From assembly GCA_030432595.1 (NCBI GenBank), contig JAUIGU010000020.1, forward strand, positions 8,144 through 72,143: a stretch of DNA of 64,000 nucleotides, in the 5' to 3' direction. The position numbers and the translations under genes were made by a program. The stretch comes from Phycisphaerae bacterium (GTDB taxonomy: Bacteria; Planctomycetota; Phycisphaerae; Phycisphaerales; Phycisphaeraceae). Below the pieces are notes generated by a model, which was not told where the DNA came from, did no database searches, and was given only the letters and a program-made list of their open reading frames with translations. How positions within the stretch are numbered: position 1 is the stretch's first letter; each line of letters begins with the position of its first letter. Positions 1,962 through 58,352 of this stretch are shown piece after piece.

Positions 1962-2071
1962 GGAGAATGTTGGTGCGTGAGGGACGAAAAGCGAAATTGA
2001 GAAGGTGTTTTTCTAATCGCGATATTTGATCATACCGGTTGGGGTTTATGGTCGGATGGTCAACGAGAAAA

Positions 2072-9255: not shown

Positions 9256-9531
9256 TTAGTTTTCTTCGTCGAACCGTCGGTCGATCAGGTCTTTAAGCGC
9301 CGCGATGGCTTCGTCGGCGTCGGGCCCGTTGGCGTGGAGCTTCAAGCCGGTGCCCTTGGTGGCCGCGAGCATCATGATCTGCATGATGCTTTTGGCGTCC
9401 ACCGTCTGCTCGCCGTTGCTGATCTTCACGTCGCTCTTAAACCCACTGGCCACGTCGACCACCGACATCGCCGGCCGGGCGTGCAGCCCGAGGCGGTTGG
9501 AGATCGTGACGTCGGCGGAGGCTTCGGGCAT
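9256..9531 (-). CDS. ptsH: Phosphocarrier protein HPr/NPr
   Basis: 91 aa. The His15 region is NRLGLHARPA and the Ser46 region is VDAKSIMQIMML. Confidence 0.9.
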   Translation of the reverse strand: MPEASADVTISNRLGLHARPAMSVVDVASGFKSDVKISNGEQTVDAKSIMQIMMLAATKGTGLKLHANGPDADEAIAALKDLIDRRFDEEN

Positions 9532-9539
9532 AACGGTCA

Positions 9540-9623
9540 GGCGAAAGTCGAAAGGCGAAGGTCGGAACGGGAAGACGCCGCACGGCGGAAAATGTTCGCC
9601 TTTCGACTCTTCCCTTTCGACTC
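9540..9623. repeat. Back-to-back TTTCGMC heptad arrays forming a 14-bp perfect inverted repeat (9546-9559 / 9595-9608) between ptsN and ptsH
   Basis: Read directly: AGTCGAAAGGCGAA pairs with TTCGCCTTTCGACT. On the - strand the array reads CTTCGCC TTTCGAC TTTCGCC + 8 nt + the ptsH ATG. Confidence 0.6.
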
Positions 9624-9625
9624 GT

Positions 9626-10099
9626 TCAGGTGATCTGTTTCTGGTCCGCTTCTTCCAACAACGTCAAGACGGCTTCTTTGGAGGTCGCCTGGCGTAAGAA
9701 CGAGCGGAAGCGATCTTTCTGCAGGTTGGAGAAGACGGTCTCCATGGCCTGGAGGTGCTCGTCGGGTTTGGACTTGGGCGACAGCAGCAGGACGATGGAG
9801 TAGACGGGCTGTTTGTCGAGCGCGTTGAACTCGACGCCGGTCTGGCTGACACCGATCGCCGCAGCCATGTTCTTGAGGTCGTCGTGCTTGACGTGGGGGA
9901 CGGCCACGCCCTTGCCGAACCCGGTGGAGCCGTTCTTTTCCCGGGCGAGGATCTGGTCGACCAGGGCGCCGCGCAGCTTGGCGTCCGCGGCGCCGGCCTC
10001 GATCAAGGCGTCGATCAACTCCGCGATGGCGTCGTCACGCTCGGTGGATTTCAGGTCGGCGAGGATCGCGTCTTGCACAACCAGTTCGGTCAGTTTCAT
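9626..10099 (-). CDS. ptsN: PTS IIA-like nitrogen regulatory protein PtsN (EIIA-Ntr)
   Basis: EIIA fructose/Ntr family features: STGFGKGVAVPHVKH (active-site His) and PVYSIVLLLSP. Start taken at MKLTELVVQ (ATG 10099). The ORF is open to 10144. Confidence 0.85.
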   Translation of the reverse strand: MKLTELVVQDAILADLKSTERDDAIAELIDALIEAGAADAKLRGALVDQILAREKNGSTGFGKGVAVPHVKHDDLKNMAAAIGVSQTGVEFNALDKQPVYSIVLLLSPKSKPDEHLQAMETVFSNLQKDRFRSFLRQATSKEAVLTLLEEADQKQIT

Positions 10100-22234: not shown

Positions 22235-22338
22235 TTCGGAAATCCGTTGAGCCCATTCGTTTCGTTTTGTCGCCTTCGAGGTTGAGGGCCGCGGTTCGGT
22301 GGGTCCTCTGCAAACTGAACTTCAACCGGAGACTCGGC

Positions 22339-24533: not shown

Positions 24534-27134
24534 TTACGGCACGTTGATGACGGTTTCACCCTCGGCCGCGAGGTCGATGCCCGGGCCGCCGTCGAGGAAG
24601 TCCACGCCGTCGCCGCCGTTGAGAACGTCGTTGTCGGCCTCGCCGAACAGGTCGTCGTCGCCGTCGCCGCCCAGGATCGTGTCGTTGCCCGCGCCGCCGC
24701 GGATCTCGTCGTTGCCGTCGCCGCCGGTGAGGACGTCGTCGCCCAGGCCGCCGTTGATCTCGAAGGTGATCAGGCCGGCGAGGCCGGTGCTGCCGGTGAC
24801 GGTGTCGTTGCCGTCCAGGGTGTTGACCTCGAGCGTCTCGGTGGTGCCGATGTCGAGGGTGAAGGCGTCGAGGTTGGTGCGTTGAAGCGCGACGCGGATA
24901 CCGTTGGGGTTGACGAAGATGTCGTCGCCTTCGGTGTTCGAGCCGTTGACCTGGACGGTGTCATTGCCGGTGCCGCCTTCGAGCAGGTCGGACCCGTCGC
25001 CGTGGTTCCAGACGAGGGTGTCGTCGTCGGACTGCCCGAGCACGACGTCGTTGCCGGGGCCGCCGATGAGGGTGTCGTTGCCGGCGCCGCCGCGGAGAAC
25101 GTCGTCGCCGTCGCTGCCGACGAGCAGGTCGTTGCCCTCACCGCCATCGAGGTCGAGGTTGATCCGCCCGGCGAGTCCGGGGTTCCCGCCGATCAAGTCC
25201 GCGCCGCCCTGGCCGTTGATGTCGAGGTTGTCAACGGCGGCCAGGTTGAGGACGGTGGTGGTCACGAGCGTGTGCTTCACCTGAACACGGTGACGCACTA
25301 CATCGACGGTGATGACGTCGCCGGCGTTGTTGCTGCCGTTGACCTGGACGGTGTTGATGCCGAAGCCGCCGTACAGGTTGTCCGCGCCGTCGCCGAAGTT
25401 CCAGATCATCAGGTCGTGGCCGTGGCCGCCGCCCACGCTGTCGTTGCCGCGCCCGCCGAGGAGGGTGTCGTTGCCGTGGCCTCCGTCGAGGCTGTCGTCG
25501 CCGTCGCCGCCCATGATGAAGTCGTTGTCGTCGCCGCCGAAGAGGCGCAGGTCGATCATGTCGGCCAGTCCGTTGGACGCAACGATCGTGTCCCTGCCGC
25601 CGTTGCCGTGGACGTCAAGCATTTCGGTCGTGCCGATGTCCATGGTGTATGCCCAGTTGTTGGTGCGTTCGAGGCGGACGCGGTCGCCGTTGGGTTGGAT
25701 GGTGATGTCGTCGCCGATGGCGTCGGACCCGTGGACCACGACGGTGTCGCGGTCGGCACCGCCTTCAAGGAAGTCCGAGCCGTCACCGTTGTGCACAATC
25801 ATTCGGTCGTTGCCGGATTCGCCGATTTTGATGTCGTTCCCGCGGTGGCCGATGAGCGTGTCGTTGCCGGCGCCGCCGCGGAGGACGTCGACGCCGTCGC
25901 CGCCGATGAGCAGGTCGTTGCCCTCGCCGCCGTCGAGGTCGAGGTCGATCAGCCCGTCGAGGCCGACGGAGCCGCGCAGGGTGTCGTTTCCGCCCTGGCC
26001 GTTGACGTCGAGGTTTTCGGTGGTGCCGATGTCGAGGGTGAACAGCCCGAGGTTGTCGCGGTCGAAGCGGACGCGGTTGCCGTTGGGCGAAATGGTGAAC
26101 TCGTCGCCGTCGGCGTTGCTGCCGTTGACCTGGACAACGTCGTTGTCGTCGCCGCCTTCCATCAGGTCGGAGCCGTCGCCGTGATTCCAGACGAACAGGT
26201 CGTGGCCCTGCTCGCCGAGTTGTATGTCGTTGCCTCGTCCGCCGATCAGGGTGTCCTGGCCGGCGCCGCCGCGAAGTACATCGACGCCGTCGCCGCCGAT
26301 GAGCAGGTCGTTGCCCTCGCCGCCGTCGAAGTCGAGCTCGATCAGCCCGCCGAGCCCGACGGAGCCGGCGATGATGTCGCTGCCGCCCTGGCCGTTGACG
26401 TCGAGGTCTTCGACGCCGCCGATGTCGAGGGTGAACAGGCCCAGGTTGTTGCGCTGGAAGCGGACGCGGTCGCCGTTGGGGTCGACGGAGAAGTCGTCGC
26501 CGGCCCCGTTGGCACCGTTGACCTGAACGATGTCGCGGTCGTCGCCGCCTTCGAGGACGTCGGAGCCGTCGCCGTTGTTCCAGATCATCAGGTCCACGCC
26601 GCTCTGGCCCTGGACGGAGTCGTTGCCGCGGTCGCCGAGGATGGTGTCGTTGCCGGAGCCGCCGAAGAGCCGGTCGACGTTGTCGCCGCCGCGGATGAAG
26701 TCGTTGTCCGCGCCGCCGAGGATGGTGTCCTCGCCCGCGCCGCCGATGAGGGTGTCGTTGCCGTCGCCGCCGAGCAGGGTGGCCTGGGGCAGCGCGCCCT
26801 GCGCCTCGTTGAGGACGATGTTGTCGTTGCCGTCGAGGCCCGAGGCGAGGATGACGGTGGTGTTGGCGACCGTGGGCACGCCGCCGGTGATCGCGACCGC
26901 GCCGTCGTTGACGAGGATGTTGCCGTTGGCGGCCCGGCTGATCTCGATGTTGTTGTCCAGGTTGTCGCCGACGACCTGGAGCAGCCCGCCGGCCGGCGAG
27001 AAGGTCGCGCTGACGGAGAACAACTCGCGCCGTTCGAGGCCTTCGAGCTGTGGCCCTGCCGCGGGCAGGCGGTCGAGCAACTCGGCGGTGGCGGGGCGGC
27101 ATCGGCGGGACAGGCGGCGGAACAGGGCGTGCAT
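24534..27134 (-). CDS. Giant hemolysin-type (RTX) calcium-binding repeat protein with five tandem modules of about 131 aa
   Basis: Dozens of GGxGxD nonapeptides (GGDGNDTLIGGAGEDTILGG...). The modules start VQVNGSN..GD.F...PNG.RV. and recur every 390-393 nt. Start taken at MHALFRRL (ATG 27134), with LEGLERRELFSV near the N-terminus. Confidence 0.85.
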   Translation of the reverse strand: MHALFRRLSRRCRPATAELLDRLPAAGPQLEGLERRELFSVSATFSPAGGLLQVVGDNLDNNIEISRAANGNILVNDGAVAITGGVPTVANTTVILASGLDGNDNIVLNEAQGALPQATLLGGDGNDTLIGGAGEDTILGGADNDFIRGGDNVDRLFGGSGNDTILGDRGNDSVQGQSGVDLMIWNNGDGSDVLEGGDDRDIVQVNGANGAGDDFSVDPNGDRVRFQRNNLGLFTLDIGGVEDLDVNGQGGSDIIAGSVGLGGLIELDFDGGEGNDLLIGGDGVDVLRGGAGQDTLIGGRGNDIQLGEQGHDLFVWNHGDGSDLMEGGDDNDVVQVNGSNADGDEFTISPNGNRVRFDRDNLGLFTLDIGTTENLDVNGQGGNDTLRGSVGLDGLIDLDLDGGEGNDLLIGGDGVDVLRGGAGNDTLIGHRGNDIKIGESGNDRMIVHNGDGSDFLEGGADRDTVVVHGSDAIGDDITIQPNGDRVRLERTNNWAYTMDIGTTEMLDVHGNGGRDTIVASNGLADMIDLRLFGGDDNDFIMGGDGDDSLDGGHGNDTLLGGRGNDSVGGGHGHDLMIWNFGDGADNLYGGFGINTVQVNGSNNAGDVITVDVVRHRVQVKHTLVTTTVLNLAAVDNLDINGQGGADLIGGNPGLAGRINLDLDGGEGNDLLVGSDGDDVLRGGAGNDTLIGGPGNDVVLGQSDDDTLVWNHGDGSDLLEGGTGNDTVQVNGSNTEGDDIFVNPNGIRVALQRTNLDAFTLDIGTTETLEVNTLDGNDTVTGSTGLAGLITFEINGGLGDDVLTGGDGNDEIRGGAGNDTILGGDGDDDLFGEADNDVLNGGDGVDFLDGGPGIDLAAEGETVINVP

Positions 27135-32612: not shown

Positions 32613-33164
32613 ATGAAAGGCATCGTCTTCACCGAGTTCATCGCGCTGGTCGAGGACAAGTTCGGGCTCGAGGTCGCGGATACCGTGCTCGGTGCCTGCC
32701 CGCTCGATTCCGGCGGCGCCTACACCGCGGTCGGCACCTACGACCACGGCGAGATCCTGCAACTGGTCTCCAAACTATCCGACGTGACCGGCGTCGATGT
32801 GCCGACCCTCGTCGAGACCTTCGGCCAGCACCTGTTCGGGACGCTGGCCACGGCCCACCCGTCCTTCCTGCAAGAGGTGGGCGGGACCTTTGATTTCCTC
32901 GAGCGGATCGACAACCACATCCACGTCGAGGTCCGCAAGCTCTACCCGGACGCGGAGTTGCCAACGTTCAAGTTCCGTCGTGACGGCGACGACCGGTTCG
33001 AGATGGCGTACCGCTCGTCGAGGCCGTTCGCCCACTTGGCCGTCGGTCTCATCCGCGGGTGTGCCGGACATTTCGGCGAAGACATCGACATCGAACACAT
33101 CGACGAGTCGGGCGGTGTCGGGAACGCCGCGACCTTCATCCTGAACCGGAAGGCCGCCGCATGA
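32613..33164 (+). CDS. H-NOX (heme-nitric oxide/oxygen binding, HNOB) sensor protein
   Basis: MKGIVFTEFIALVEDKFG is a typical H-NOX N-terminus. The proximal His lies in NHIHVEV (His102/104). The Y-x-S-x-R heme-propionate motif is present as YRSSR (133-137). GGAG lies 7 nt upstream of the ATG. Confidence 0.85.
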   Translation: MKGIVFTEFIALVEDKFGLEVADTVLGACPLDSGGAYTAVGTYDHGEILQLVSKLSDVTGVDVPTLVETFGQHLFGTLATAHPSFLQEVGGTFDFLERIDNHIHVEVRKLYPDAELPTFKFRRDGDDRFEMAYRSSRPFAHLAVGLIRGCAGHFGEDIDIEHIDESGGVGNAATFILNRKAAA

Positions 33165-39347: not shown

Positions 39348-39420
<73 letters not shown>

Positions 39421-54580: not shown

Positions 54581-55204
54581 ATGCCCTGTTTCCTCGACGA
54601 TCAGGAACTCGCCCTCCCCGACGCGACCTCGCCCGACTCGGCCACCCTCGGCAACCTCCTCCAACACGCCCGCGCTCAGTCCGAGCAACTCGGCCGCGTC
54701 ATCGTCGAGGTCCGCATCGACGGCGACGCGCTCGGCCAGGACGCGCTCGACGAGCGCATGGACCAGCCCGTCGGCGACGCCGACGTCCGCCTGTACTCCG
54801 TCGACCCCGCCGAGCTCGGCGTCCAGGCGCTCGGCGAAGCGCGCACCCAACTCGCGGCGCTCGGCGACCTGCAACAGGAAGCCGCCGACCTGCTCCAGGC
54901 CGACCAGGCCGGCGAGGCCTTCGCCAAACTCGGCGGCGCCGTGCAGGGCTGGATCAACGTCGCCTCCGCCGTCACGCAGAGCGCCCACCTCAACGGCATC
55001 AACCTCGACGACGTCGAGGCCGGCGACGACTCCGCCCTCGCCATCGTCAACGCCCTCGCCCAGCAGCTCCAGGAATTCAAAACCCTCATCGAGGCCGGCG
55101 ACACCACGGCGCTGGCCGACGCCCTCGGCTACGAGTGGCCCGACGTCGTCTCCCGCTGGGACGACCTCCTCCAAGCCCTCGCCAACCGCCTCTCGGTCGC
55201 GTGA
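54581..55204 (+). CDS. Hypothetical acidic protein
   Basis: 207-aa ORF with protein-like composition (D/E/A/L-rich, helical) and GC-rich third positions. I recognise no family. Confidence 0.6.
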   Translation: MPCFLDDQELALPDATSPDSATLGNLLQHARAQSEQLGRVIVEVRIDGDALGQDALDERMDQPVGDADVRLYSVDPAELGVQALGEARTQLAALGDLQQEAADLLQADQAGEAFAKLGGAVQGWINVASAVTQSAHLNGINLDDVEAGDDSALAIVNALAQQLQEFKTLIEAGDTTALADALGYEWPDVVSRWDDLLQALANRLSVA

Positions 55205-55215
55205 TGCCTCGGTGC

Positions 55216-55264
55216 TTTCGACTTTCGACTTTTGCCTTTCCACCTTCGCCTTTAGGCTGAACCC
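55216..55264 (+). repeat. Seven in-register heptads TTTCGAC TTTCGAC TTTTGCC TTTCCAC CTTCGCC TTTAGGC TGAACCC ending at the nuoC ATG
   Basis: Read directly. The 7-nt period is maintained up to ATG 55265. It is the same family as the arrays at 57858-57899 (-), 57972-58020 (+) and 9540-9623. Confidence 0.6.
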
Positions 55265-55825
55265 ATGCCCACGCTCGACCACCCCGCGCTGCCCGCCGTC
55301 AAGGCCGCCTTCCCCGACGCGAAGCTCTTCGCCACCGAGTTCCGCGGCGAGACGACGCTGGTCGTCGAGCCCGCGCTCCTGCACGAACTGCTCCACTTCC
55401 TCAAGCACGGCCCCCACACCGCCTGCGACTTCCTCTCCGACCTCGTCGGCATCGACTACCTCAACTACCCCCAACCCAAAGAAGGCGCGCCGCACGGCCG
55501 CTTCGCCGTCGTCTACAACCTCGAGAGCACCACCAAACACCACCGGCTCTTCGTCAAGGTCTTCCTCGACCCCACGCTCGACACCGCCGGCACCGACGAC
55601 GACCCCGCCCTGCACCTGCCCACCGCCACCGACCTCTGGCCCGGCGCCGAGTGGCTCGAACGCGAGGTCTTCGACATGCTCGGCGTCCGCTTCGACGGCC
55701 ACCCCGACCTCCGCCGCATCCTCACCTGGGAATCCTTCCCCGCCCACCCCCACCGCAAAGACTACCCCGTCACCGGCCGCGGCGAACGCGAGGACTACCG
55801 CGTCGTCGAACGCGACGACGTGTGA
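55265..55825 (+). CDS. nuoC: NADH-quinone oxidoreductase subunit C (isolated copy)
   Basis: DFLSDLVGIDYL...RFAVVYNL...LWPGAEWLEREVFDMLGVRFDGHPDLRRIL is the typical NuoC/30-kDa subunit signature. Confidence 0.9.
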   Translation: MPTLDHPALPAVKAAFPDAKLFATEFRGETTLVVEPALLHELLHFLKHGPHTACDFLSDLVGIDYLNYPQPKEGAPHGRFAVVYNLESTTKHHRLFVKVFLDPTLDTAGTDDDPALHLPTATDLWPGAEWLEREVFDMLGVRFDGHPDLRRILTWESFPAHPHRKDYPVTGRGEREDYRVVERDDV

Positions 55826-55852: not shown

Positions 55853-56470
55853 CTATTGCCCCAATAATCCCTCAACACCCTGTGTACCCATGCGCCATGA
55901 GCGGGGGTCGAAACTCGCCTCGCGGTATTCCTGGTAGACCTCGGTGACCTGGCCGTGCACCACCCGCACGCCCAGCACGAACTTGGGGACGGTCGAAGAA
56001 GAGAGCTCCAACTCCGAGCTACGCTCCTCTCCGGGCACGCTGAAATACCACTCAACCGTTTCCATAGACACCAGCGGGCTTCGGAAGTTCGGGTTCCTTC
56101 CCGCGGCCTCGATGCACCCAAGCGTTGTCATTCCCTCTCGGAAGACCGGAAGGTCCGGTGGCACCTTGCCCTCGATCTGACGCGGCTCGAGCTGGTCCAG
56201 CCGGTGTTCGGCCCGCGCGAGCGCAGTCTTCAACTCGAGCCTTTCCGCATAAAGGTTCTCCACCAACGTGCGAAGGTCCTCCGCCGACATCGCCGGCAAC
56301 GCTTCGACGAAACGGTCCGTACGTTCCTTTTCGGTTGCTAGTTCCTTGGTGACGTCCTCCGGCAAGACGTCCGAGAGTCGCGTCTGAGGTGTTGAAGCCG
56401 GCTGGGCAACGGTAACCAGCGCAGTCAATGAGATGGTCATCATTACAGCGGTCGACGTTAGGCGAGGCAT
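55853..56470 (-). CDS. Hypothetical secreted protein with coiled-coil segment
   Basis: 205-aa ORF with signal peptide MPRLTSTAVMMTISLTALVTVAQPA and protein-like composition. I recognise no family. Confidence 0.6.
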   Translation of the reverse strand: MPRLTSTAVMMTISLTALVTVAQPASTPQTRLSDVLPEDVTKELATEKERTDRFVEALPAMSAEDLRTLVENLYAERLELKTALARAEHRLDQLEPRQIEGKVPPDLPVFREGMTTLGCIEAAGRNPNFRSPLVSMETVEWYFSVPGEERSSELELSSSTVPKFVLGVRVVHGQVTEVYQEYREASFDPRSWRMGTQGVEGLLGQ

Positions 56471-56916
56471 GACGGTGCTCCAATGTGGGATGACGCCCGT
56501 ATCTTACGCCCGGTGCCTGATCTCGTATGTGCTGGGTTAGTCTGGGAACGTCGAAAACGGCCCGCGCACATCACCTTCGGCGGGATGCGGCACCCATCAA
56601 GCCGTCTCGATTGTCTGCGCACGCTTTGCCCGAGAGTTCGCCGCGTCATCTTGACGCACGGGTAAAATGTAGGTGCAGGTGAAGGGCGTGGCCTCCGCGC
56701 GGGTGCCAGGTGGGTGAGGGCTTGAGTTCCTTAATCACGAAATGCCGTGTGGCCTTGGACGCGGGTGGGTCGGAATGGATTTCGATCGCACGCCGCCTCC
56801 CGCCGGAACCCCCCGAGCGAGTCCCATCCGAAGCGCGGTGACGGCGGGTTGAAAAACCGACGCCGGCCGGGGGTCTGTGGATCGTGACGACGGTCCCGCC
56901 CCGGGTTTGTTTCGCA

Positions 56917-56974
56917 GCGAGCCGGGCCGTGTCGGCCCGGATGCAGGACACCGGGCCGACACGGCCCGGCTCGC
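56917..56974. repeat. Perfect 24-bp inverted repeat with 10-nt loop; each arm is itself a hairpin (nested palindrome)
   Basis: Read directly: GCGAG-CCGGGCCG-TGT-CGGCCCGG / ATGCAGGACA / CCGGGCCG-ACA-CGGCCCGG-CTCGC. Confidence 0.7.
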
Positions 56975-57148
56975 TCAGAGGCGCACACGGTGTTCTTTCA
57001 CAAGTGAATCCGAGGGGCGTTGTCGTCCCCACACTCGTCCGTGTCGAGTGCACGGATAGCCGGAACCGGGCCGGTTCCGGACCGGGAGCCGCCGGCTCCC
57101 GGCTGCAAGCGCGCGATAATCTCAACCGCGCGCCGAAACGAGAGTCAC

Positions 57149-57172
57149 AGCCCCGCAAGCGCTTGCGGGGCT
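57149..57172 (-). terminator. Palindromic hairpin AGCCCCGCAAGC/GCTTGCGGGGCT 17 nt downstream of the thuA stop; probable terminator
   Basis: Read directly: a perfect 24-nt palindrome (about a 10-bp stem with a 4-nt loop) located just 3' of the - strand CDS that ends at 57189. There is no clear U-tract. Confidence 0.45.
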
Positions 57173-57188
57173 ACGAACCACAAACCGC

Positions 57189-57857
57189 TTACCGGCTTGC
57201 CCACGTCATCCCGCGGAAGACGATCTCTTTCGCTTCGTCCACCTCGAAGTCTTTGTACGTGTGGCCCCAGCACGCGCAGAACACCCGGCCCTTCCCCCAC
57301 GTCTTCGTGTACGCGTACGGCAGCACCGCGTTCTGGTGGTACAGCGACGGGTCGTCGTGGGCCTGATCGAACACGGTCTCGCACAGCACGTGGTTGCCCG
57401 GGTCGTGGTGGCAGTAGTACTGCTCGGTGTCGAGCAGCTCGAAATCATCCAGCCCGGCGGTGATCGGGTGGGTGGGGTCGGTGATCTCGACGGTGTAGCG
57501 CTCGATGCAGTTGCCCGGGTGCGCGACCCACTGGGCGCCGGTCATCCACTGGTACTCGGTGTTCATGCGGAAGCTGTCGATCATCCCGCCGTGGAAACCC
57601 GCGAGCCCGGTGCCGTTTTGCACCGCGGTGTTCAAACCCTTCCACTGCGCGTCGCTGATCTCACTCATGGTGAAGATCGGGACGATGAGCGCGGCGTCTT
57701 TGAGGTAGTCGGCGTCGAGGTAGGCGTCGAGCGTGTCGGACAGCTTGACGGTGAAGCCGGCCTGGTCGAGCAGGGGGGCGAAGGTTTCGGCGGACTGCTT
57801 GGGCGTGTGGCCGTCCCAGCCGCCGTAGACGATGAGCGCGTGTTTGGTGTCGGGCAT
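57189..57857 (-). CDS. ThuA (trehalose utilisation) domain-containing protein
   Basis: ALIVYGGWDGHTP...GLAGFHGG...THPITAGL.DFEL.TEQYY...WGKGRVFCACWGH matches the ThuA family pattern. Start at MPDTKHA (57857). Confidence 0.85.
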   Translation of the reverse strand: MPDTKHALIVYGGWDGHTPKQSAETFAPLLDQAGFTVKLSDTLDAYLDADYLKDAALIVPIFTMSEISDAQWKGLNTAVQNGTGLAGFHGGMIDSFRMNTEYQWMTGAQWVAHPGNCIERYTVEITDPTHPITAGLDDFELLDTEQYYCHHDPGNHVLCETVFDQAHDDPSLYHQNAVLPYAYTKTWGKGRVFCACWGHTYKDFEVDEAKEIVFRGMTWASR

Positions 57858-58020
57858 GGCACGAGCATAGAGGCGAAAGTGAAAAGTCGAAAGTCGAAAG
57901 CCGAGCGGGTCGGAGTCGAAAACCAATGATCAACCTGGGGCGGCCGATCGAGCCGGAGTTTCTGACTTCACTTTCGCCTTTGAACTTTTGCCTTTCGACT
58001 TTCCCGACTACCGCAAATGC
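57858..58020. repeat. Back-to-back (divergent) TTTCGMC heptad arrays: - strand array 57858-57899 leading to the thuA ATG, + strand array 57972-58020 leading to an ATG antisense to mrpG
   Basis: Read directly. The - strand reads TTTCGAC TTTCGAC TTTTCAC TTTCGCC TCTATGC TCGTGCC ATG. The + strand reads TTTCGCC TTTGAAC TTTTGCC TTTCGAC TTTCCCG ACTACCG CAAATGC ATG. Confidence 0.6.
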
Positions 58021-58352
58021 ATGCCGTCGTCGTGGTGTTCGTCGCCGGCGGCCTGGTTCCATTGGTGGGTGCCGGCTTTGAGGGCGGCCTTGGCGAGCAG
58101 GTGCGAGCCGATGGGCACGGCGACGAAGGCGAAGACGAGGGTGGCCAGCGACTTGGCGGCGACGTCGCCCGTGCCGATGTGCACGACAACCGCCAGCAGC
58201 AGCCCGATGAGCCCGAGCGTGGCGCACTTGCTCGCGGCGTGCAGACGCAGGAACGTGTCGGGCAGGCGCACGATCCCCAACGCGCCGACGAACATGAAGA
58301 ACAGACCGCCGAGCAGGAACAGCGCGGCAATGACGTCGAACAAGGCGCTCAT
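58008..58352 (-). CDS. mrpG: Na+/H+ (monovalent cation/proton) antiporter subunit G
   Basis: The 114-aa protein starts MSALFDVIAALFLLGGLFFMFVGALGIVRLPDTFLRLHAASK, which is the typical MnhG/MrpG pattern. It is the last gene of the mrp operon. Confidence 0.88.
   Translation of the reverse strand: MSALFDVIAALFLLGGLFFMFVGALGIVRLPDTFLRLHAASKCATLGLIGLLLAVVVHIGTGDVAAKSLATLVFAFVAVPIGSHLLAKAALKAGTHQWNQAAGDEHHDDGMHLR

What the first reader, a model, noticed from the sequence alone, without database searches (positions are those of the whole stretch)
55216..55267. Seven-nucleotide periodic TTTCGMC array phase-locked to the start codon: a recurrent leader element replacing a Shine-Dalgarno
Seen on the + strand: TTTCGAC TTTCGAC TTTTGCC TTTCCAC CTTCGCC TTTAGGC TGAACCC, then the nuoC ATG (55265). 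The 7-nt register is kept right up to the start codon.

Other members of the family in this window:
- Before thuA on the - strand (57899 down to 57855): TTTCGAC TTTCGAC TTTTCAC TTTCGCC TCTATGC TCGTGCC ATG.
- On the + strand at 57972-58023: TTTCGCC TTTGAAC TTTTGCC TTTCGAC TTTCCCG ACTACCG CAAATGC ATG.
- A shorter form before ptsH: CTTCGCC TTTCGAC TTTCGCC + 8 nt + ATG (- strand, 9566 down to 9529).
- A degenerate form before the FAD oxidase: TTTCGCT TTTCGTC + 21 nt + ATG (- strand, 1996 down to 1959).
- A weak copy may lie at 22254-22281.

In three cases the last CG-containing heptad ends exactly 14 nt before an ATG. None of these leaders has a GGAG. In contrast, GGAG sits 7 nt before the ATGs at 32613, 22339, 43548 and 44492.

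I know of no described element with this structure. The hypotheses (all inference) are an SD-independent translation enhancer or S1-binding leader, a tandem binding array for an RNA- or DNA-binding protein, a promoter-proximal element, or a REP/MITE-like repeat that happens to land in 5' regions.
Basis: seen in the sequence. Interest (0 to 1): 0.62.

Follow-up and report, generated by a model that had tools for sequence, protein, structure and literature searches.

The report
Heptad-repeat arms of gene-bracketing palindromic elements
The 7-base repeats before nuoC are real, but they are not a ribosome-recruiting leader: they are one arm of a widespread, barely described family of intergenic heptad-repeat palindromes that in their full form bracket a small four-helix-bundle (23S-rRNA-IVS/Avd-like) gene, and here they sit in the promoter region of a leaderless gene.

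Summary
The TTTCGMC arrays exist and are far above chance (16 two-unit hits against 1.95 expected). The "SD-replacing, phase-locked leader" reading does not hold.

- The "+ leader" at 57972-58023 precedes no gene. It lies 1 nt past the stop codon of mnhG on the other strand.
- nuoC and thuA carry a -10-like TAnnnT at exactly -12. This is the signature of a leaderless gene class in this Phycisphaera-like clade (32 genes at -12 against 1.4 background; SD core in 1 of 52). Their arrays therefore lie at promoter positions -15 to -50.
- Phase to the ATG is uniform across 72 arrays.

The arrays form inverted pairs, stop-(GAAAGnn)n...(nnCTTTC)n-start, at ptsN-ptsH and mnhG-thuA. The nuoC array is a solo arm.

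The same architecture brackets PF05635 "23S rRNA intervening-sequence protein" genes in many phyla. Of 80 loci chosen without reference to repeats, 70 have flanking arrays, and 142 of 164 arrays have period 7. Arms hold about 5 anchors. The PVC subfamily uses the CTTTCnn unit seen in the window.

The window copies are ORF-less derivatives. Heptamer arrays are known (LSSR, STRR, TAACTGA). I found no description of the link to IVP cassettes.

The parts
55216..55250 (+). Solo 'CT arm': TTTCGAC TTTCGAC TTTTGCC TTTCCAC CTTCGCC. It has 5 in-register CT/AG anchors plus 2 more. It starts 11 nt after the upstream stop codon and ends 14 nt before the nuoC ATG. No inverted partner.
55253..55258 (+). -10-like hexamer TAGGCT at -12 to -7 of nuoC. 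Predicted leaderless promoter with the transcription start at the A of the ATG.
   Evidence: Relatives carry TATCCT, TACCGT or TAATTT at -12/-13.
55265..55825 (+). nuoC (PF00329, Complex1_30kDa)
54581..55204 (+). Upstream ORF of 207 aa with no Pfam match. It is itself preceded by TATCAT at -12.
57872..57899 (-). CT arm of the mnhG-thuA pair: TTTCGAC TTTCGAC TTTTCAC TTTCGCC. It ends 14 nt before the thuA ATG.
57864..57869 (-). -10-like hexamer TATGCT at -12 to -7 of thuA
57189..57857 (-). thuA (PF06283)
57928..57949 (-). Terminator-like hairpin with a T-rich tail, located in the loop between the two arms
57972..58006 (-). AG arm of the same pair. On the - strand it reads GGGAAAGTCGAAAGGCAAAAGTTCAAAGGCGAAAG, with 5 anchors, and begins 1 nt after the mnhG TAG stop.
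58008..58352 (-). mnhG (PF03334), last gene of an mnh/mrp operon
9540..9567 (-). CT arm of the ptsN-ptsH pair: TTCCGAC CTTCGCC TTTCGAC TTTCGCC. It ends 8 nt before the ptsH ATG.
9594..9621 (-). AG arm of the same pair (GAGTCGAAAGGGAAGAGTCGAAAGGCGAAC). It begins 4 nt after the ptsN TGA stop and forms a 16-bp perfect stem with the CT arm.
9256..9531 (-). ptsH / HPr (PF00381)
9626..10099 (-). ptsN-like EIIA-2 (PF00359)
1983..1996 (-). Two-unit match TTTCGCT TTTCGTC before the FAD oxidase gene. It is at chance level and I do not count it as a member.

Best explanation
The TTTCGMC arrays are arms of an intergenic heptad-repeat palindromic element. They are not a translational leader.

The full element, which I defined from 110 loci chosen without reference to repeats, reads: upstream gene stop, then a 5' arm of about 5 heptads with an invariant AG (GAAAG in the PVC subfamily), then about 23 nt, then a roughly 118-aa PF05635 four-helix-bundle gene ('23S rRNA intervening-sequence protein', a homologue of the pentameric Avd), then about 21 nt, then a reverse-complementary 3' arm (nnnnnCT, or CTTTCnn), then 4-17 nt, then the next gene's start codon.

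The window holds two ORF-less copies, at ptsN-ptsH and mnhG-thuA, and one solo 3' arm, at nuoC. All use the CTTTCnn unit of the PVC subfamily.

The arrays sit next to start codons because the element fills the short spacer between two genes.

Shown: the anatomy, the polarity, the complementarity of the arms, the association with IVP genes, and the leaderless-type -10 boxes.

Inferred: the elements spread as pre-formed units (they also occur as in-frame insertions inside genes). Where both arms are transcribed, they pair and loop out the insert, bringing the upstream stop and the downstream start together so that the operon still works. At nuoC and thuA the T-rich arm now forms the -15 to -50 part of a leaderless promoter, with a neutral or mildly UP-element-like effect.
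For: Arrays and inverted pairs in the window. Stems of 12-16 perfect pairs (z -3.1 and -2.2).

mnhG on the - strand.

Relatives: inverted heptad pairs with locus-specific units fill gene spacers (0-9 nt after the stop, 0-7 nt before the start) and fold at -36 to -128 kcal/mol.

IVP association: in L122, the closest relative, a pair brackets a PF05635 pseudogene between nuoC and thuA. Of 80 IVP loci chosen without reference to repeats, 70 have flanking arrays, 142 of 164 arrays have period 7, and 39 loci have both arms. AG is present in 104 of 113 arms against 26 of 113 for the control dinucleotide, and the commonest anchor run is 5. Arm units are complementary (0-2 mismatches in 36 of 36 pairs). 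Flanking genes are co-directional in 30 of 36, and the 5' arm starts -2 to +5 nt from the stop codon, which is TAG in 19 of 28.

Second subfamily (PVC bacteria): 18 of 30 loci have both arms, with units AAAGCAG/TTTCTGC, AAAGTCG/TTTCGAC and similar. GAAAG is present in 26 of 41 arms against 3 of 112 in subfamily 1.

Polarity across 120 loci: the outer end of the T-rich strand abuts a gene end (median 10 nt), while the inner end lies 100-145 nt away.

In-frame insertions in MiaB, IleRS and RecF, and a whole pair in L014.

Leaderless class.

RNA contigs span both arms of a cassette together with the neighbouring genes.
Against: Neither IVP subfamily has a gene in the 64-kb window, so descent of the ORF-less copies from a cassette is inferred. 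The nuoC array has no partner arm. Heptad arrays can also arise in place by slippage: L137 has (ATCGCAC)x8 at the orthologous site, apparently amplified from a resident heptamer and lacking an AG/CT anchor. Mobility is not shown: I found no target-site duplication and no within-species presence/absence polymorphism. At mnhG-thuA a terminator-like hairpin lies between the arms, so the two arms may rarely be on one RNA. Gene calls come from my own codon-usage caller. The IVP loci are the best tblastn hits for two queries, not a random sample of the family. No transcription data exist for this organism.
Confidence: 0.62

Rival explanations
1. A protein-binding array with a present regulatory role. 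A ring-shaped or multi-domain protein reads the roughly 5 anchors spaced 7 nt apart on single-stranded RNA or DNA and controls transcription or translation of nuoC, thuA and ptsH. Candidates are a PF05635 pentamer encoded elsewhere in the genome, a cold-shock protein, or S1.
For: The same unit recurs at three loci within 64 kb. The anchor is invariant while the other positions vary, and the anchor count peaks at 5. IVP homologues 2GSC and 2RLD crystallised with 5 chains, and PF05635 is related to Avd (PMC10053308). The arm core co-varies with IVP subfamily. MacGregor proposed S1, Csp or CsrA for the TAACTGA repeats (PMC4679880).
Against: There are no binding data. No IVP gene lies in the window. 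The arrays also occur inside coding regions and after stop codons, which a dedicated regulon would not predict. A 7-bp period does not match the helical repeat of double-stranded DNA.
Confidence: 0.2
2. Ordinary heptanucleotide microsatellites (LSSR/STRR type) produced in place by replication slippage. They would be unrelated to IVP cassettes and selectively neutral.
For: Heptanucleotides are the commonest long simple repeats in many bacteria (Mrazek 2007, as summarised in PMC4679880). L137 shows an array amplified in place at the same site. The site is not conserved among relatives.
Against: Independent slippage does not explain four things: the same unit at three loci in one window, the inverted pairs with a fixed AG-first polarity, the AG/CT anchor (92% against 23%), or the match to the unit class of PVC IVP cassettes. 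No 7-nt length polymorphism was seen in four metagenomes.
Confidence: 0.12
3. One reading: the array is a transcribed, unstructured, pyrimidine-rich 5' leader that recruits ribosomes without a Shine-Dalgarno (an S1-type enhancer), phase-locked to the ATG.
For: There is no SD before nuoC, thuA or ptsH. The nuoC array is unstructured (z -0.3). ptsH has no -10 box and is probably co-transcribed with ptsN, so its CT arm is in the mRNA. TAACTGA repeats in Beggiatoaceae show similar placement.
Against: The -10 boxes at -12 place the nuoC and thuA arrays upstream of the transcription start, and the leaderless class explains the missing SD. There is no phase-lock and no bias toward start codons across 120 loci. 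One claimed member is not upstream of any gene. At ptsH the arm is sequestered in a 16-bp stem.
Confidence: 0.08

Closest known systems
TAACTGA heptamer direct repeats of marine Beggiatoaceae, Cyanobacteria and Bacteroidetes (MacGregor 2015, PMC4679880)
   Same: These are tandem heptamers of 2-6 or more copies, mostly intergenic, lying in 'forward' orientation within a few nt of start codons that lack an SD. They are sometimes found in reverse orientation inside ORFs or after stop codons. The unit contains CT (AG on the complement), so it obeys the polarity rule found here.
   Different: The unit differs (TAACTGA against CTTTCnn). No inverted arm pairs or IVP genes were reported, and a translational role was favoured. 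Here the arrays lie upstream of leaderless start sites or form stop-to-start hairpins.
Long simple sequence repeats (Mrazek 2007) and cyanobacterial STRR heptamers (Mazel 1990; the latter from my own knowledge)
   Same: Both are intergenic tandem heptanucleotides of unknown function. STRR1 (CCCCAGT) and STRR3 (CAACAGT) contain the AG(T) anchor.
   Different: They are described as simple tandem repeats attributed to slippage. No arm pairing, gene-bracketing geometry or associated protein was described.
23S rRNA intervening sequences carrying a PF05635 (S23p/IVP) ORF
   Same: The same protein family sits inside an insert bounded by complementary arms that pair and loop the insert out of a host RNA (general knowledge; the family link is).
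   Different: Here the host is an operon spacer and not an rRNA helix, and the arms are built from heptad repeats. Processing by RNase III is untested.
REP/BIME elements, REPINs and MITEs
   Same: These are short, dispersed, imperfect palindromes in intergenic DNA, often between operon genes. ORF-less copies greatly outnumber any protein-coding form.
   Different: The arms here are internally periodic (7 nt) with only 2-5 conserved bases. No RAYT or transposase is associated, and no terminal inverted repeat plus target duplication was seen.
TRAP binding to its 11 (G/U)AG repeats (own knowledge)
   Same: A ring oligomer reads a short purine anchor repeated at fixed spacing on single-stranded RNA next to a start codon. 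This is a working analogy for five AG anchors and a pentamer.
   Different: The protein fold, spacing (5-6 nt) and copy number (11) all differ. Binding by IVP is hypothetical.

Membership tests
IVP-cassette heptad palindromes (defined here) | Tandem units of period 7 | tested here: met
   TRF reports period 7 at 9542-9564, 55215-55253, 57874-57904 and 57970-58003.
IVP-cassette heptad palindromes (defined here) | Invariant anchor: AG in the 5' arm and CT in the 3' arm; GAAAG/CTTTC in the PVC subfamily | tested here: met
   In-register AG runs are 5 (+2) for nuoC, 6 and 5 for the thuA pair, and 3 and 4 for the ptsH pair. The units are CTTTCnn, as in subfamily 2.
IVP-cassette heptad palindromes (defined here) | Two reverse-complementary arms with the AG arm 5' of the CT arm | tested here: inconclusive
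   Met at ptsN-ptsH and mnhG-thuA. Not met at nuoC, which is a solo arm.
IVP-cassette heptad palindromes (defined here) | The 5' arm starts within about 5 nt of the upstream stop codon, and the 3' arm ends 4-17 nt before the next start codon | tested here: met
   Gaps are 1 and 4 nt after the stops and 14 and 8 nt before the starts. For nuoC they are 11 and 14 nt.
IVP-cassette heptad palindromes (defined here) | A PF05635 gene between the arms | tested here: not met
   Neither subfamily profile finds an IVP ORF in the window. The window copies are therefore filed as ORF-less derivatives, not full members.
TAACTGA-type start-proximal heptamer repeats (MacGregor 2015) | The unit TAACTGA itself | tested here: not met
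   The unit here is TTTCGMC.
TAACTGA-type start-proximal heptamer repeats (MacGregor 2015) | Forward orientation within a few nt of a start codon that lacks an SD | tested here: met
   This holds for nuoC, thuA and ptsH.
Slippage microsatellite (LSSR) | Copy-number polymorphism in steps of one unit between close strains | tested here: inconclusive
   No 7-nt indels appear in contigs from 4 metagenomes, but contigs drop rare variants, and those of X3 and X4 break at 55206.
SD-independent translational enhancer in a 5' UTR | The element lies inside the transcribed leader | tested here: not met
   TAGGCT and TATGCT at -12 predict transcription starts at the ATG of nuoC and thuA. This is a prediction from sequence only. 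It could hold for ptsH.
SD-independent translational enhancer in a 5' UTR | Fixed phase or distance to the start codon | tested here: not met
   The mod-7 distribution is uniform over 72 arrays.
REP/MITE | Terminal inverted repeats with a target-site duplication, or an associated RAYT or transposase | not tested
   No duplication is obvious at the junctions. There was no systematic search, and no transposase was seen in the loci.
Intrinsic terminator | Short GC-rich hairpin followed by a T-tract | tested here: not met
   The scan does not call the arms as terminators. A separate terminator-like hairpin lies in the loop at 57949-57928.
Rfam families | A match at gathering score | tested here: not met
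   The only match in the window is a tRNA at 39348-39420.

The most novel reading that the evidence does not exclude
PF05635 'intervening-sequence' proteins (Avd-like pentamers) may be the trans-acting partners of heptanucleotide repeat arrays. Each arm would present about five anchors (AG, or GAAAG in PVC bacteria) spaced 7 nt apart to one pentameric ring. The gene plus its two complementary arms would form a self-propagating cassette that inserts exactly between a stop codon and the next start codon, or in frame into protein loops. It would stay harmless because the arms pair and loop it out. ORF-less arms would spread like MITEs. If so, this would give one explanation for cyanobacterial STRRs, the Beggiatoa TAACTGA repeats and the excess of heptamer LSSRs in many phyla, and a function for a protein family that has had none for 30 years.
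Probability: 0.3. Interest if true: 0.85.

Novelty: new variant of a known kind. Interest (0 to 1): 0.6.

Why it matters
Heptanucleotide tandem repeats have been catalogued for decades without a mechanism: STRRs since 1990, LSSRs since 2007, TAACTGA since 2015. PF05635 proteins are abundant in Bacteroidota, Cyanobacteria, PVC bacteria, Chloroflexota, Acidobacteriota and Patescibacteria and still have no known function. A fixed anatomy now ties the two together: about five anchored heptads per arm, two complementary arms, exact stop-to-start placement, and arm cores that co-vary with the protein subfamily. That turns both puzzles into bench-testable questions about binding stoichiometry, RNA processing and mobility. 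For annotation, it warns that such arrays next to start codons are not evidence of a translational signal, and that roughly a sixth of genes in Phycisphaerales look leaderless.

Tried and rejected
- **Rfam:** the gathering scan of the whole window found only a tRNA. An E-value scan of 56400-57300 gave only spurious miRNA hits on a palindrome.
- **Literature:** the exact repeat string returned 0 papers. Searches linking IVP or four-helix-bundle proteins to repeats found nothing relevant.
- **Conservation at the orthologous site:** the nuoC upstream region is not conserved among 45 relatives, so no alignment or covariation model could be built.
- **Strain polymorphism:** no 7-nt indels were found.
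- **RNA data for the window organism:** none usable; one run holds 7% of the sampled words.
- **Alignment-based locus search:** a four-protein IVP alignment was too divergent for the search, so I used single queries.
- **First ad-hoc IVP profile:** too narrow, with 2 hits. I rebuilt it from 80 and then 29 proteins.
- **tmRNA or a structured RNA at 56610-57180:** rejected.
- **Complementarity of the heptad to the 16S rRNA 3' region, and Rho YC-dinucleotide spacing:** I considered both from memory and dropped them for lack of fit.
- **A full sigma-70 consensus promoter within the arrays:** none at the tool's threshold.
- **IVP genes next to the arrays in viral contigs:** none found.
Full report
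**1. The observation**

The heptad arrays are real. Reading the sequence gives TTTCGAC TTTCGAC TTTTGCC TTTCCAC CTTCGCC at 55216-55250, followed by TTTAGGC TGAACCC and the nuoC ATG at 55265. Similar arrays lie on the - strand at 57899-57872 before thuA, on the + strand at 57972-58006, and on the - strand at 9567-9540 before ptsH.

A two-unit pattern with up to 2 mismatches occurs 16 times in the window against 1.95 expected, and none of 100 dinucleotide-preserving shuffles reaches that. Tandem Repeats Finder reports period-7 arrays at exactly these four places and nowhere else in the 64 kb.

**2. Corrected gene context**

The window has 67% GC and comes from a Phycisphaera-like planctomycete. 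The best NuoC match is 84% identical, in an uncultured Phycisphaera MAG, and the DNA is found in biofloc metagenomes.

The coding strand there is the - strand, which carries mnhG (PF03334, E = 1e-22), the last gene of an mnhD-E-F-G operon. Its TAG stop lies 1 nt from the array.

On the - strand the spacer therefore reads: mnhG stop, (GAAAGnn)5, 72 nt, (nnCTTTC)4, 14 nt, thuA ATG. The 9.5-kb locus has the same plan: ptsN (EIIA-2) TGA, 4 nt, (GAAAGnn)4, 26 nt, (nnCTTTC)4, 8 nt, ptsH ATG.

The two arms are complementary. They give a 16-bp perfect stem at ptsN-ptsH (-40 kcal/mol, z = -3.1) and 12-16 bp at mnhG-thuA (z = -2.2). The nuoC array has no partner and no structure (z = -0.3).

**3. Why there is no Shine-Dalgarno**

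In the window, 9 of 54 genes carry a TAnnnT hexamer starting at -12 or -13 from the start codon, where about 0.5 would be expected. nuoC (TAGGCT) and thuA (TATGCT) are among them.

Across 298 Phycisphaerales genes, with the nuoC orthologues removed, TAnnnT starts 32 times at -12 and 12 times at -13, against a background of 1.36 per position. Only 1 of the 52 such genes has an SD core, against 79 of 246 other genes.

This is the signature of leaderless transcripts: a -10 box placed so that transcription starts at the A of the ATG. The nearest nuoC orthologues keep a -10-like hexamer at -12 or -13 (TATCCT, TACCGT, TAATTT), while everything upstream of it differs.

The register seems to run up to the ATG because the distance from the end of the -10 box to the start site is itself about 7 nt. 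The arrays before nuoC and thuA occupy about -15 to -50 of a promoter, not a leader. This rests on sequence statistics; no RNA data exist for this organism.

A general test for phase-locking is negative. For 72 CT-anchored arrays followed by a start codon within 30 nt, (start - anchor) mod 7 gives 9, 12, 13, 8, 11, 9, 10.

**4. The arrays are not specific to start codons**

Hits were mostly in Bacteroidota, Planctomycetota, Chloroflexota, Cyanobacteria, Patescibacteria, Acidobacteriota and Verrucomicrobiota, with several hits per genome in some MAGs. The array also occurs in 37 viral contigs.

Using a self-trained codon-usage gene caller, I placed 193 arrays. Among the intergenic ones, 58 are sense and 58 antisense to the downstream gene. 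There is a strong polarity, however. The 3' end of the TTTCGAC strand abuts a gene end. Most often this is the stop codon of an opposite-strand gene (median 10 nt; 35 of 58 within 20 nt), so that gene's mRNA reads stop-(GTCGAAA)n. The other end of the array lies 100-145 nt from the nearest gene.

Another 57 arrays are genuine in-frame insertions inside genes. Almost all are read as GTCGAAA, which encodes a K/V/E/S/R repeat. Examples are MiaB, an IleRS-like synthetase, RecF and an oxidoreductase. In L014 a whole inverted pair sits in frame inside a protein.

**5. The family behind the arrays**

In 474 kb around nuoC orthologues, period-7 arrays commonly come as inverted pairs whose unit differs from locus to locus: AGGTTGT/ACCTACA, AAGTTGG/TTCCAAC, TAGGGAG/CCCTACT, GGGCAGG/CCCTGCC, AATGCAG/CATTCTG. 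These pairs fill the spacer between neighbouring genes, with 0-9 nt after the stop codon and 0-7 nt before the start codon. They fold into hairpins of -36 to -128 kcal/mol.

In L122, the closest relative, such a pair lies between nuoC and thuA and brackets a degenerate PF05635 gene, the "23S rRNA intervening-sequence protein" or IVP. In L104 a TTTCGAC pair brackets an intact IVP gene.

I then fetched 80 IVP loci using an IVP protein as the query, so the choice did not depend on repeats.
- 70 of the 80 have a short tandem array within 200 nt, and 39 have one on both sides.
- 142 of the 164 arrays have period 7.
- The two arms are reverse complements, with 0-2 unit mismatches in all 36 pairs.
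- AG is present in 104 of 113 arms in the 5'-arm orientation, against 26 of 113 for the control dinucleotide. The other five positions vary.
- In-register AG runs peak at 5, with most between 4 and 6.
- The flanking genes are co-directional with the IVP gene in 30 of 36 loci.
- The 5' arm begins -2 to +5 nt from the upstream stop codon. That stop is TAG in 19 of 28 cases, and its AG often serves as the first anchor.
- The 3' arm ends 4-17 nt before the next ATG.

A second IVP subfamily, mostly from Verrucomicrobiota and other PVC bacteria, shows the same plan: 18 of 30 loci have both arms and 68 of 96 arrays have period 7. Its units are AAAGCAG/TTTCTGC, AAAGCTG/TTTCAGC, AAAGTCG/TTTCGAC and TTTCAAC. 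GAAAG is present in 26 of 41 arms of this subfamily against 3 of 112 in the first, so the arm core co-varies with the protein subfamily.

The window's arrays belong to this CTTTCnn class and match the geometry, but the window encodes no IVP gene.

Metatranscriptome contigs cover a Proteiniphilum cassette continuously from the upstream gene through the 5' arm into the IVP gene, and from the IVP gene through the 3' arm into the downstream gene. No excision joints were seen.

**6. Interpretation**

The best-supported reading is that the window holds two ORF-less copies and one solo arm of this element family. Their position next to start codons follows from the element filling stop-to-start spacers.

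How it works is inferred. The elements appear to spread as pre-formed units. The evidence is the same unit at several loci in one genome, genome-specific unit families, whole pairs inserted in frame, and presence or absence between species. Where both arms are transcribed they should pair. This would loop out the insert and bring the upstream stop next to the downstream start, which would limit the harm to operon expression, much as rRNA intervening sequences are tolerated.

At mnhG-thuA a terminator-like hairpin lies between the arms. There the 3' arm probably acts only as T-rich DNA upstream of the promoter, as at nuoC.

A more ambitious reading is that the IVP pentamer binds the roughly five anchors of an arm. 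The homologues 2GSC and 2RLD have five chains per entry, and PF05635 is related to Avd (PMC10053308). The anchor count and the co-variation between subfamily and arm core fit this idea, but there are no binding data.

Simple slippage does occur, as shown by (ATCGCAC)x8 in L137. It does not explain the shared unit, the anchor, the polarity or the pairing.

**7. What is known**

Heptamer tandem repeats are known as LSSRs, as STRRs, and as the TAACTGA repeats that sit before SD-less start codons in Beggiatoaceae (PMC4679880). The TAACTGA repeats are the closest published parallel and obey the same CT-forward polarity. None of my searches found a description of inverted heptad arms bracketing PF05635 genes. 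The library does not hold most subscription journals, so I claim novelty cautiously.

**8. Verdict**

The feature is a new variant of a known kind, and it leads to an apparently undescribed and widespread element architecture.

Noticed in passing
window 56610-57180: An ORF-free stretch made of several GC-rich perfect palindromes, including a 40-nt inverted repeat at 56901-56990. The - strand folds with z = -5. Summed contig depth reaches about 900x against about 10x for the flanks in four metagenomes, so the sequence is multi-copy or shared by many organisms. There is no Rfam, tRNA or tmRNA match. It looks like a second, REP-like repeat family.
   Followed up: partly
window, 9 of 54 genes (for example starts at 638-, 8145+, 15086-, 45716+, 54581+, 55265+, 57857-); Phycisphaerales loci L122-L165: A sharp peak of TAnnnT at -12/-13 from start codons (32 and 12 genes against a background of 1.4). 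It is mutually exclusive with SD cores. This implies that about one gene in six in this clade is leaderless.
   Followed up: yes
L001 7210-7237, L006 657-684, L008 2349-2376, L021 2893-2920, L014 1434-1511: Heptad arrays occur as in-frame insertions inside conserved proteins (MiaB, an IleRS-like synthetase, RecF, a 2-oxoacid:ferredoxin oxidoreductase). They are read as GTCGAAA, which encodes K/V/E/S/R-rich linkers. L014 carries a complete inverted pair in frame.
   Followed up: partly
L137 3938-3995: A perfect (ATCGCAC)x8 lies directly before nuoC in a relative. It was apparently amplified in place from a heptamer that is present once in the sister genome L131. It has no AG/CT anchor, so it is a separate, slippage-type origin at the same site.
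   Followed up: partly
L122 4565-5014: In the closest relative, the nuoC-thuA spacer holds a degenerate subfamily-2 PF05635 gene flanked by (ATTTGGG)n and (AATCCGA)n arms, each 6 nt from a stop codon of the convergent neighbours.
   Followed up: yes
L270 1458-1479 and 1905-1923: Metatranscriptome contigs X12-10 and X14-20 match both arms of the Proteiniphilum cassette but carry different sequence between and around them. Other loci in those communities therefore share the same arm units.
   Followed up: no
window 24534-27134 (- strand): A large gene built from nested tandem repeats of 27, 54 and about 393 nt (5.3 copies of the 393-nt unit). It is probably a repeat-rich secreted or surface protein.
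   Followed up: no
L276-L312 (IMG/VR contigs): The same TTTCGAC arrays, up to 13 units long, occur in 37 viral contigs. No subfamily-1 IVP gene was detected nearby.
   Followed up: partly
L335, L337, L338, L340 (Verrucomicrobiota IVP loci): Some subfamily-2 cassettes have arms of period 8 instead of 7 (for example TTTCAGTT, GCGTTTCA), so the spacing is not strictly fixed across the family.
   Followed up: no
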